Assembly (NCBI GenBank): GCA_949358305.1
Contig: OX442314.1
Span: 29,202,001 to 29,266,000 of the forward strand
Reading direction: 5' to 3'
DNA from: Strigamia acuminata
Taxonomy: Eukaryota
DNA length: 64,000 nucleotides
In this document: positions 54,901-56,481 of the stretch, in pieces
Layout of the letters: each line of letters opens with the position of its first letter
How positions within the stretch are numbered: the stretch's first letter is position 1
The notes under the pieces: model-generated
The model's input: only the letters and a program-made list of their open reading frames with translations
What the model was told of the DNA's origin: nothing
Databases searched by the model: none
Translations under genes and position numbers: made by a program

Positions 54901-55417
54901 TCAAAAGTAAAGTTTAGAAGTGTTTCTTGTTGAAAAGTGTATTATATTCGTCTTCTTTATAAATTAAAGAATTAAAATCGTCAGATTTTGAATTTTTTTA
55001 TGGCTCAAAAACCATTGAATATGATCGATCCAAAAGGAAATAATAAGCAGACAAACTTAAATTTAAGTTCTGTACCACTTGGCGATCAAACAGAAAAGAT
55101 TCCCGATCATTTTACTCTGTATTGTAATCGTCATGGACTGGATAAAACCAAGTTTAAAAATATAATCGAAGCTTCAGACTATGTAAAAGCTAGGAACTGG
55201 CGAGATCGTACCCAATCTCAATCTTCACATCAAGATCCAGTACGGAATCCACAAACATACAGCCGAAACTTAGTGAATCAAGATTCTCATACTATGTTTC
55301 AAACATCCAGTAGGGGATCTAAGTTAGAAAAGTTTAAACCACCTAATTCGGTAGATAAGGGGGAAGAGAATTATAAACCTAATAATTCTCGTCCAGAGAG
55401 TTCGTTAACTAACCAGT
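48905..55417 (+). repeat. 3255-bp direct tandem duplication inside element C
   Basis: Identical ORF translations recur at offset 3255 (e.g. 50116/53371, 51406/54661); the junction at 52160 has AGT microhomology. Confidence 0.95.
51745..52200 (+). pseudogene. Truncated duplicate of the element C ORF (first ~140 codons)
   Basis: Identical to the N-terminus of 55000-56481 up to SSLTNQ, then runs through the duplication junction to a stop. Confidence 0.85.
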
Positions 55418-56481
55418 CGGTTGTTCAGAACAAATTAAAACTCGTTTACAATCGAGATCAGCTAATTTCAGTTCGATATGCTAATCCAGCTGAAGCACAA
55501 CGATATGTGGCTAGCCTTAATCTGTCGATTAACCTACCGCTATCAAAAGAATTGGGAACCGTAAACAAAAGTTTTGGGCCACCAATATCAACGCAAAGGA
55601 AAGATATTCGGACTCCAAACAAACATTTGCAGTCAAATAACGTACAACAACGTGCCCGATCGCCGATCACAAACTCATGTTTGCGGACGTATGATTTGTC
55701 TACCAAGAAGAGTCCCCAGCCAAGACAATTCTACCTAACGCCCATTTCAAATCGAAAAAAGGTCAAGCAAACTTTTCCCTTGAAAAAGTATTACCAACAC
55801 GATAATGAGAATGATTTTAAACCTAAAAAAGAAAGTTTTTTGACTAACCCACGGGAGATCCGGTATCAATTCGAACAGTATTGTAAACAATACCAGTTAA
55901 ATTCAGCTGAATTTAAAAATATAAACGAAGCGCAACAATTCGTATTTCGAAATCAATACCGTAACCAACGACTAAAACCCGTCCCAGTCGTCAATCTGAC
56001 GGAGATACAACAATTTGCGTCTGGAAAGCAACCCTGCAATATCCAGAATAATTCATCTCAACGAGAGGAATTAAGAACTTCAAAAAAGCGTTTTCGGTCA
56101 CCAAGTCCAGCTGGTGATGAAGAAACTTCAAGTACAAACCAACATGTTCAAAAACTGACTGAAAACCCAGGTTTCCAATCATCAGTTCCACGACTTAGAG
56201 TCAAATATAGATCCCCTCGTTTGTTGCGGGATTTCACAATTCCAAATATGGGTCCTTTCCACGTATGGTTTTCCAATGAGGGTCCCATTCATGTATGGTT
56301 TTCCAGAGATGACCTAAAACAAAAAGTTGGGTCGTCACGGTCATTTACACTGCCAAGTCAGTACACTGTATGTAACTGCCCAAAGGAAAAACGTCGAAAG
56401 AAATCAGTACAGCAGGCTGAGAGATCTCGGAAATTCGCAAATATGCGAGCTCAATATTTAGCAAAGAATCATGTTGATTAA
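55000..56481 (+). CDS. Element C ORF (~493 aa), Gag-N-terminus-related protein with three repeats
   Basis: YCNRHGLDKTKFKNIIEASDYV, YNRDQLISVRYANPAEAQRYV and YCKQYQLNSAEFKNINEAQQFV resemble YCRHFKLDAIRFATLAEAKHYV in gypsy A Gag; no capsid or CCHC motif recognised. Confidence 0.75.
   Translation: MAQKPLNMIDPKGNNKQTNLNLSSVPLGDQTEKIPDHFTLYCNRHGLDKTKFKNIIEASDYVKARNWRDRTQSQSSHQDPVRNPQTYSRNLVNQDSHTMFQTSSRGSKLEKFKPPNSVDKGEENYKPNNSRPESSLTNQSVVQNKLKLVYNRDQLISVRYANPAEAQRYVASLNLSINLPLSKELGTVNKSFGPPISTQRKDIRTPNKHLQSNNVQQRARSPITNSCLRTYDLSTKKSPQPRQFYLTPISNRKKVKQTFPLKKYYQHDNENDFKPKKESFLTNPREIRYQFEQYCKQYQLNSAEFKNINEAQQFVFRNQYRNQRLKPVPVVNLTEIQQFASGKQPCNIQNNSSQREELRTSKKRFRSPSPAGDEETSSTNQHVQKLTENPGFQSSVPRLRVKYRSPRLLRDFTIPNMGPFHVWFSNEGPIHVWFSRDDLKQKVGSSRSFTLPSQYTVCNCPKEKRRKKSVQQAERSRKFANMRAQYLAKNHVD

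What the first reader, a model, noticed from the sequence alone, without database searches (positions are those of the whole stretch)
55000..56481. Satellite C encodes a protein with a triplicated Gag N-terminal motif and no capsid
Seen: three copies of a YCxxxxLDxxxFxxxxEAxxYV-like motif separated by low-complexity linkers; the same motif occurs once near the N-terminus of gypsy A Gag (YCRHFKLDAIRFATLAEAKHYV). No capsid or zinc-knuckle motif follows. Inference: a multivalent Gag-mimic that could co-assemble with or redirect helper Gag, or titrate a host factor. Together with A this could be an undescribed helper-satellite system.
Basis: partly seen in the sequence, partly recalled or inferred. 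Interest (0 to 1): 0.75.

Follow-up and report, generated by a model that had tools for sequence, protein, structure and literature searches.

The report
Satellite retrotransposon with triple Gag mimic
A young jumping gene with no enzymes or capsid of its own carries one intact gene holding three diverged copies of the small front-end module of a neighbouring Gypsy element's Gag protein; it is likely moved by that element's machinery, and the protein may help it get aboard, which is untested.

Summary
The 493-codon ORF (55000-56481) carries three copies of a ~37-residue module found once at residues 32-68 of gypsy A Gag; no shuffle reproduces three such hits, and no capsid, zinc knuckle or Pol is present. 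The ORF lies in a complete 12.7-kb LTR element (C) with 99.8% identical LTRs and a 4-bp target duplication. C shares with A the unusual TATGACGG...TCACA ends, primer site, polypurine tract and distantly homologous LTRs. CCAAT, TATA and initiator motifs precede the ORF. In two public runs C lies about 25-fold deeper than A, almost without variation; in a third it does not. The module models as two helices and matches no known family or fold. Best reading: a non-autonomous retrotransposon mobilised by A or a sister family, whose gag was remodelled into a capsid-less, basic, multivalent accessory protein. Function is untested. Against it, 10 of 13 listed ORF variants change the protein, as neutral drift predicts (A gag: 5 of 16). 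Closest in plan: MaLR and TR-GAG elements. New variant of a known kind.

The parts
46302..46305 (+). Left target-site duplication CAAT of element C
   Evidence: the empty site (left flank joined to 58991) appears as a loose end in run X1
46306..48219 (+). C 5' LTR, 1914 bp, ends TATGACGG...CGTCACA
   Evidence: 3 differences to the 3' LTR; homologous to A's LTR, score 124.5 vs shuffle maximum 83 in 60
48222..48239 (+). Primer-binding site; 16 of 18 bases shared with A's; tRNA-Gln type (identity recalled, no call)
48450..48835 (+). Two further copies of the PBS-adjacent segment (exact PBS at 48457-48474, a degenerate third copy)
48905..52162 (+). First copy of a 3258-bp internal tandem duplication (4 differences to 52160-55417), ending in a truncated ORF copy at 51745-52200 (151 aa, module R1 only)
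54660..54757 (+). Predicted internal RNA polymerase II promoter: ATTGG 54660, CCAAT 54681, TATTAAA 54723, initiator-like TCATTC 54752; no ATG between it and the ORF
   Evidence: consensus match only, pattern chosen after seeing the sequence
55000..56481 (+). C ORF, 493 aa, net charge +42, predicted mostly disordered, no capsid or zinc knuckle
55087..55197 (+). Module R1 (aa 30-66)
55411..55521 (+). Module R2 (aa 138-174), the most degenerate copy
55846..55956 (+). Module R3 (aa 283-319), closest to Gag (13 of 37 identical)
56383..56403 (+). Basic stretch KEKRRKK (aa 462-468), resembling a nuclear-localisation signal (inference)
57063..57076 (+). Polypurine tract plus 2 nt (..AAGGGGGATG), like A's ..AAGGGGGACG
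57077..58990 (+). C 3' LTR
58991..58994 (+). Right target-site duplication CAAT
23253..37039 (+). Gypsy element A, candidate helper: LTRs 1681 bp with 2 differences over the compared 1685 bp (one of them outside the LTR proper), target duplication GATG, ends TATGACGG...TGTCACA
25769..27820 (+). A gag, 683 aa: N-terminal module, long disordered linker, capsid region (Retrotrans_gag E 1.4e-5), CCHC knuckle; AAAAAAC at the stop overlaps the pol frame (predicted -1 frameshift)
25862..25972 (+). The single Gag module (aa 32-68); modelled as helix, 10-residue linker, helix
27928..31908 (+). A pol, intact protease, RT, RNase H and integrase; integrase 64% identical to a Strigamia maritima element

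Best explanation
C is a recently inserted LTR retrotransposon without capsid or enzymes whose single ORF holds three diverged copies of the N-terminal module of gypsy A's Gag; it is likely packaged, copied and integrated by the proteins of A or a sister family, and its ORF likely encodes an accessory protein that would help C's RNA compete for that machinery. Shown: the LTR structure, target duplication, shared ends, PBS and PPT, the three modules, and the absence of capsid and Pol. Inferred: (1) C descends from an A-clade element whose gag kept only the 5' module, triplicated it long ago and lost capsid and nucleocapsid. (2) The ORF is transcribed from an internal promoter, since 31 ATGs lie in the 2.8 kb before it. 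(3) The product is a basic, disordered chain with three small helical modules. These would engage the same partner as Gag's N-terminus (Gag itself or a host localisation factor) with higher avidity, while the basic linkers would hold RNA, so that the protein acts as an adaptor or decoy at assembly sites and not as a lattice subunit. Step 3 has no direct evidence.
For: LTRs with 3 differences in 1914 bp, CAAT duplication, empty site in reads. First 8 and last 6 LTR bases identical to A's, 4-bp duplication in both, PBS 16 of 18, PPT alike; the third gypsy D starts its LTR differently. LTR homology 0 of 60 shuffles. Module statistics; R1 starts at residue 30 and Gag's module at 32. The frame is open for 493 codons while the other five frames hold 24-43 stops; the longest open stretch in 2000 shuffles was 198. 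GC3 has drifted to 0.32 against 0.45 in A gag, and the repeats to 9-12 of 37 identity with four invariant residues, which implies long selection on frame and module. TATA plus initiator in the 500 bp before the ATG: 42 of 5000 shuffles; with CCAAT 8 of 5000. Module model pLDDT 83-88 in the core. Depth ratio C/A about 28 (X1) and 25 (X2); C about 165-170 times the depth of unique flanks.
Against: 10 of the 13 listed variants in the ORF change a residue (neutral expectation 72-78%), against 5 of 16 in A gag, mostly in its disordered part; Fisher p 0.025. These rows are a small listed subset (40 rows shown in each call; 579 and 762 not shown). Outside the modules C and Gag are not significantly alike (best 69 of 2000 shuffles, nine comparisons). 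The pre-ORF DNA matches A's pre-gag DNA only marginally (5 of 200). In run X3 C is not deeper than A (ratio 0.6), so the ORF does not guarantee dominance. The whole-window count of the TATA-initiator pattern (3) is near chance (2.1). A protein made from a subgenomic mRNA could not favour its own template in cis, which weakens selection on it (inference). R2 is degenerate. C's LTR 3' part is several-fold deeper than two LTRs per copy would give, so a closer helper may exist.
Confidence: 0.5

Rival explanations
1. The ORF is a relic now drifting: an old remodelled gag that lost its function and stays open because one master copy amplified recently. C moves on its cis signals alone, like ETn or a LARD.
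For: Neutral-looking variants, 10 of 13; near-zero variation among the deep X1 contigs points to one recent burst; a diverged C-like contig over 56121-56528 has 51 differences and 7 gaps in 406 bp; the window's own copy carries a truncated duplicate.
Against: 493 open codons in 39% GC DNA; four invariant residues across repeats 24-32% identical; promoter motifs kept; no listed variant makes a stop; X3 contig 55480-55907 has no gap.
Confidence: 0.25
2. The module is a nucleic-acid or chromatin binder (two helices with an extension, like SAP/LEM/Rho-N domains), and the C protein is a nuclear regulator of transcription, export or silencing of C (and A) that never meets Gag.
For: Helix, 10-residue extension, helix model; net charge +42 and KRRKK; own promoter, as reported for the accessory gene of maize Grande (passages).
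Against: The modules themselves are only mildly basic; the likeness to these families rests on recalled motif spacing, not on a call.
Confidence: 0.15
3. The protein is a dominant-negative brake on the helper (or on rival passengers), titrating Gag's N-terminal partner as p22 does for Ty1 capsid.
For: Gag-derived, predicted subgenomic expression as for p22 (abstract); A is at low depth, about 6 times unique flanks.
Against: No capsid C-terminal domain; a parasite that needs the helper gains little from blocking it; A's depth relative to C was not lower where C is rare, but unique depth in X3 is unknown.
Confidence: 0.1

Closest known systems
ERVL-MaLR elements of mammals (e.g. THE1D, 464-aa ORF of unknown function; PMC11359688 and PMC6466679, passages seen)
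   Same: Non-autonomous LTR element, no pol or env, one long ORF with only a trace of gag homology, high copy, function unknown.
   Different: C belongs with a Ty3/gypsy clade whose nearest named relative is from a centipede. Its gag trace is a triplicated N-terminal module, it has a predicted internal promoter, and it is apparently active now beside an intact candidate helper.
TR-GAG elements and wheat RLG_Quinta/RLG_Cereba (bioRxiv 10.64898/2026.03.01.708851, passages seen)
   Same: Non-autonomous elements that keep a gag-derived ORF and lack enzymes.
   Different: They keep structural GAG and are described as under 4 kb; C keeps no capsid or nucleocapsid and is 9.4 kb without its duplication.
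LARDs, BARE-2/BARE-1 and ETn/MusD (passages)
   Same: Large LTR passengers with PBS and PPT, moved in trans, able to outnumber the helper.
   Different: LARDs and ETn are non-coding and BARE-2 lacks functional GAG; C carries an intact remodelled ORF.
Ty1 p22 and Ty1' DRT2 (PMC4599808, PMC10951436; abstracts and outlines only)
   Same: Partial Gag proteins that act on full Gag; p22 comes from an alternative internal transcript.
   Different: They contain the C-terminal or capsid part of Gag and restrict transposition; C's protein has only the N-terminal module, three times, in a separate mobile element.
Additional ORFs of plant gypsy elements (Grande gene23, Retand TRP28; PMC7264820, PMC11963269, passages)
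   Same: Extra element-borne gene with its own internal promoter, proposed to regulate transposition.
   Different: Those are antisense, lie after pol, and are not described as Gag-derived in the passages seen.

Membership tests
Non-autonomous LTR retrotransposon | Two near-identical LTRs with a target-site duplication | tested here: met
   3 differences in 1914 bp; CAAT on both sides; empty site in X1
Non-autonomous LTR retrotransposon | PBS next to the 5' LTR and PPT next to the 3' LTR | tested here: met
   the tRNA-Gln identity is recalled; no tRNA gene in the window
Non-autonomous LTR retrotransposon | No protease, RT, RNase H or integrase | tested here: met
   tblastn and blastp of the window's three Pol proteins find no significant match inside 46306-58990; Pfam
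Non-autonomous LTR retrotransposon | Mobilised in trans by a named helper (A) | not testable with these tools
   Shared ends, PBS, PPT and LTR homology are indirect
LARD | Longer than 4 kb | tested here: met
   12,685 bp; 9.4 kb without the duplication
LARD | Non-coding interior | tested here: not met
   Intact 493-codon ORF
TR-GAG | Retains a structural GAG (capsid) domain | tested here: not met
   Capsid/nucleocapsid profile has no hit in the C ORF, while scoring A gag at 5.7e-73 and the copia knuckle at 3.8e-4; Pfam none
ERVL-MaLR | pol-less, env-less element with a single ORF bearing trace gag homology | tested here: met
   definition from passages
ERVL-MaLR | Descent from mammalian ERV-L | tested here: not met
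   The related autonomous element A groups with a Strigamia gypsy integrase, support 100/99; no direct comparison with a MaLR ORF was run
p22/Drt2-type Gag restriction factor | Contains the capsid C-terminal domain | tested here: not met
p22/Drt2-type Gag restriction factor | Expressed from an internal transcript | tested here: inconclusive
   Promoter consensus only
Helix-extension-helix domains (SAP, LEM, Rho-N) | Two helices joined by an extended linker of about 10 residues | tested here: met
   Model from 4 sequences, helices 9-22 and 33-43, mean pLDDT 75.7; the family definition is recalled
Helix-extension-helix domains (SAP, LEM, Rho-N) | Sequence or structural match to a family member | tested here: inconclusive
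   Searches on a 49-residue model are weak and gave nothing significant for any family

The most novel reading that the evidence does not exclude
C is a true satellite of a gypsy retrotransposon that has turned the helper's gag into a separately transcribed, capsid-less, trivalent mimic of Gag's N-terminus, and uses it to redirect the helper's particle assembly to its own RNA. This would be the retrotransposon counterpart of phage satellites that hijack helper capsids, and would explain how it came to outnumber the helper about 25-fold in one population.
Probability: 0.25. Interest if true: 0.8.

Novelty: new variant of a known kind. Interest (0 to 1): 0.58.

Why it matters
Non-autonomous LTR elements are usually treated as passive passengers, either non-coding or supplying a normal capsid. 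C keeps the opposite half of Gag, multiplied, behind promoter-like motifs. If the protein is functional, passengers can encode tools to compete for helper particles. Its repeats also single out a small, previously unannotated Gag N-terminal domain whose partner could be found. An intact candidate helper, a young passenger and populations that differ roughly 40-fold in the passenger-to-helper depth ratio (about 25-28 vs 0.6) would make the pair a testable model for the long-unexplained ORF of MaLR-like elements.

Tried and rejected
No whole genome is held for this window, so copies could not be aligned and dN/dS could not be computed. Homolog searches without result: C protein, 0 of 2758 candidates at E 0.01, lengths 271-863 only; A Gag, 0 of 7994; Atlas, no usable hit for C or for Gag 20-80; PDB by sequence, nothing under E 0.1; Pfam on the modules, nothing near cut-off; viral contigs, four scans with no relative. 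The module profile also finds nothing in 120 Pol relatives or 17 metagenome gypsy loci. Fold searches of the module model: no Foldseek match at E 0.001 in PDB or BFVD; best Z 3.4 among 48,161 chains, no SAP, LEM or Rho-N entry among the 50 shown, several peripheral-subunit-binding domains at Z 2.7-3.3, all within background. A recalled likeness to the RNase H1 hybrid-binding domain and to UBA/CUE got no support from Pfam. The single-sequence model of the whole C protein was too poor to search (pLDDT 41). Complex prediction of module with module was not available, so binding is untested. No RNA holder was listed. No Rfam match. Linker and tail similarity to Gag was not significant in nine tests; the tail's match to Gag's C-terminus (88 of 2000) and its CNCPK are treated as chance. 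The 3' non-coding regions of A and C gave 107 of 200 and 4 of 200 shuffles and were not relied on. Rejected: D as helper (different LTR start); an assembly artefact (target duplication, empty site and three runs covering the ORF). Ten literature searches listed no capsid-less, repeated Gag N-terminal ORF in a non-autonomous element; the library lacks most subscription papers and Repbase-type records, and no supplements were read.

Full report
What is there. The window is animal DNA with a duplicated amiloride-sensitive channel gene, an intact copia element and two gypsy elements, A and D. The ORF in question (55000-56481, 493 aa) is the only long ORF of a fourth LTR element, C, at 46306-58990. 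Its LTRs are 1914 bp with 3 differences, and it is flanked by CAAT on both sides. It has inserted into D between D's pol and D's 922-aa downstream ORF, and run X1 shows the empty site. A 3258-bp internal tandem duplication (4 differences) repeats the leader, the promoter-like island and the first 139 codons. No protease, RT, RNase H or integrase remnant was found inside C.

The repeats are real. Gag A residues 32-68 score 81, 41 and 40 at C residues 283, 138 and 30, and -6 at the next best site. No full shuffle of 3000 reached any of these scores. Shuffles within 10-residue blocks reached 41 and 40 three times each with their best site, and never with their third-best. Leave-one-out profiles recover Gag (iE 1.2e-6), R3 (4.4e-7) and R1 (6e-5) clearly and R2 weakly (0.042). 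The copies are 9-13 of 37 identical, so the triplication is old; L, E, A and V are invariant. A profile of A's capsid and knuckle region with 14 relatives finds nothing in the C ORF. The linkers are rich in S, N, Q, P, K and R like Gag's disordered region, but they are not alignable beyond chance. The protein has net charge +42, and its low-confidence model is mostly coil with helices at the modules. The Gag module, folded with four sequences, gives helix, 10-residue linker, helix at pLDDT 83-88 in the core. It matches no family or fold significantly. No homolog of the module was found outside the window; those searches are weak for a 37-residue module.

Link to A. Both elements begin TATGACGG and end GTCACA, not the usual TG...CA. 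Both have 4-bp target duplications, primer sites identical at 16 of 18 bases (tRNA-Gln type, recalled) and AAGGGGGA polypurine tracts. Their LTRs are homologous but distant: score 124.5 against a maximum of 83 in 60 shuffles, 861 of 1539 columns identical. D's LTR starts differently. A has intact gag and pol, and its integrase is sister to a Strigamia maritima element (64% identical, support 100/99, in a tree of 45 rows chosen as the best full-length matches). The host is therefore possibly a myriapod (inference). C is thus an old offshoot of the A clade that has kept the signals read by an A-type RT and integrase. Whether A or an unseen sister family does the work is open: the 3' 1.4 kb of C's LTR is much deeper in reads than two copies per element would give.

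Expression signals. Thirty-one ATGs lie in the 2.8 kb before the ORF, so translation from the genomic RNA would be poor without splicing. A GC-rich island holds ATTGG, CCAAT, TATTAAA and an initiator-like TCATTC 250 bp upstream, with no ATG in between. In 5000 dinucleotide shuffles of the 500 bp before the ATG, TATA plus initiator appeared 42 times, and with CCAAT 8 times. The pattern was chosen after seeing the sequence, and its whole-window count (3, two of them the duplicated copy) is near chance (2.1). A has a GC-rich island at the same place, weakly alike (5 of 200 shuffles). No transcript data were available.

Abundance. In runs X1 and X2 (one study, possibly the source of the assembly) C's ORF region lies at depth about 9,000-10,000 and 20,000-24,000. 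A's pol lies at 307-365 and 642-896, and flank contigs taken as unique at 55-64 and 122-166. That gives C/A of about 28 and 25 and C/unique of about 165-170. In X3, from another study, C/A is 0.6. I picked 3-5 depth values per class by hand; for X2 I used positions covered by one layer of contigs and left out higher summed values. The tool warns that contig depth is not a copy number, and contigs drop rare variants. Two X1 contigs over 54806-55365 and 55421-55900 have no difference from the window. The simplest reading is a recent burst of one C variant in one population.

Results against function. Of the 40 variant rows listed, 13 fall in the ORF: 10 change a residue, 3 do not, none makes a stop. 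Of those listed, 16 positions fall in A gag: 5 change a residue and 11 do not. A second allele at 26684 was left out, and the two calls used different thresholds. The neutral expectation is 72-78% changing; C fits it, A does not (p 1e-4 to 1e-3), Fisher p 0.025. Only 1 of the 13 lies in a module, about 3 being expected by length. An X3 contig over 55878-56583 has one gap whose place is not given, and a diverged X2 contig over 56121-56528 has 7. Against a pure relic stand the open frame (the other five frames have 24-43 stops; shuffles give at most 198 codons), GC3 drifted to 0.32 from A's 0.45, and conserved residues across deeply diverged repeats.

Mechanism. Shown: structure, shared cis signals, modules, missing capsid and enzymes. 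Inferred with high odds (about 0.9): C moves in trans and its ORF descends from gag. Inferred with moderate odds (about 0.6-0.7): the protein has been selected for. Inferred with lower odds: the three modules engage the partner of Gag's N-terminus multivalently while the basic linkers hold RNA, biasing helper particles towards C. It cannot be a lattice subunit. Rivals are a drifting relic, a nuclear nucleic-acid-binding regulator, and a p22-like brake.

Comparison and novelty. The plan resembles mammalian MaLR elements, which have one ORF of about 464 aa with trace gag homology and unknown function (passages of PMC11359688 and PMC6466679). It resembles TR-GAG, LARD and BARE-2 in dependence (passages of bioRxiv 10.64898/2026.03.01.708851). 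It fails membership of LARD (coding), TR-GAG and p22/Drt2 (no capsid; abstracts of PMC4599808 and PMC10951436) and MaLR (lineage). Accessory genes with their own promoter are known in plant gypsy elements (passages of PMC7264820 and PMC11963269). Ten searches listed no element with a repeated, capsid-less Gag N-terminus; other papers were seen as listings only and no supplements were read. Verdict: a real feature, a new variant of a known kind, interest 0.58.

Noticed in passing
window 32858-34756 (+): A carries a third ORF after pol, open for 632 codons from stop to stop (317 aa from its first ATG), with three CxxC pairs and a splice-acceptor-like TTTCTTTAG at 32883; only a sub-threshold Anti-TRAP zinc-ribbon hit, E 0.0065. 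An orphan accessory gene in the env position.
   Followed up: partly
window 43360-46128 and 60187-63996 (-): Gypsy D, interrupted by C, has an intact pol and a 922-aa proline-rich downstream ORF with no Pfam hit. Its 3' LTR region (from 43320 leftwards) is extremely deep in reads, about 1e5 summed in X1 for 42311-42900.
   Followed up: partly
window 23253 and 46306: A and C integrate with TA...CA ends (TATGACGG...TCACA) and 4-bp duplications, with 2 extra nucleotides towards both PBS and PPT.
   Followed up: yes
window 25230-25450: GC-rich island before A gag with CCATTG at 25351 and AGACG at 25380, the spacing recalled for an initiator plus downstream promoter element; gag in this clade may have its own internal promoter.
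   Followed up: partly
window 48220-48835, 53813, 56565, 56696: C's interior holds extra copies of its PBS segment and several PPT-like AAGGGGGAC runs.
   Followed up: no
window 56251-56310: The C protein's tail has a short internal repeat, GPFHVWFSNE followed by GPIHVWFSRD.
   Followed up: no
window 18158-22902 (+): Intact copia element, 227-bp LTRs 99.6% identical, CATTT duplication, 1321-aa polyprotein.
   Followed up: no
window 4912-8431 and 38283-42253: Two copies of an amiloride-sensitive sodium channel gene region, 88-96% identical; the second has about 0.7 kb more sequence in 39114-39950.
   Followed up: no
P0002, P0106: The nearest named Pol relatives are gappy Strigamia maritima gene models (49% and 55% best local identity); all other listed hits are 42% or lower, so this gypsy clade is barely represented among those hits.
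   Followed up: partly
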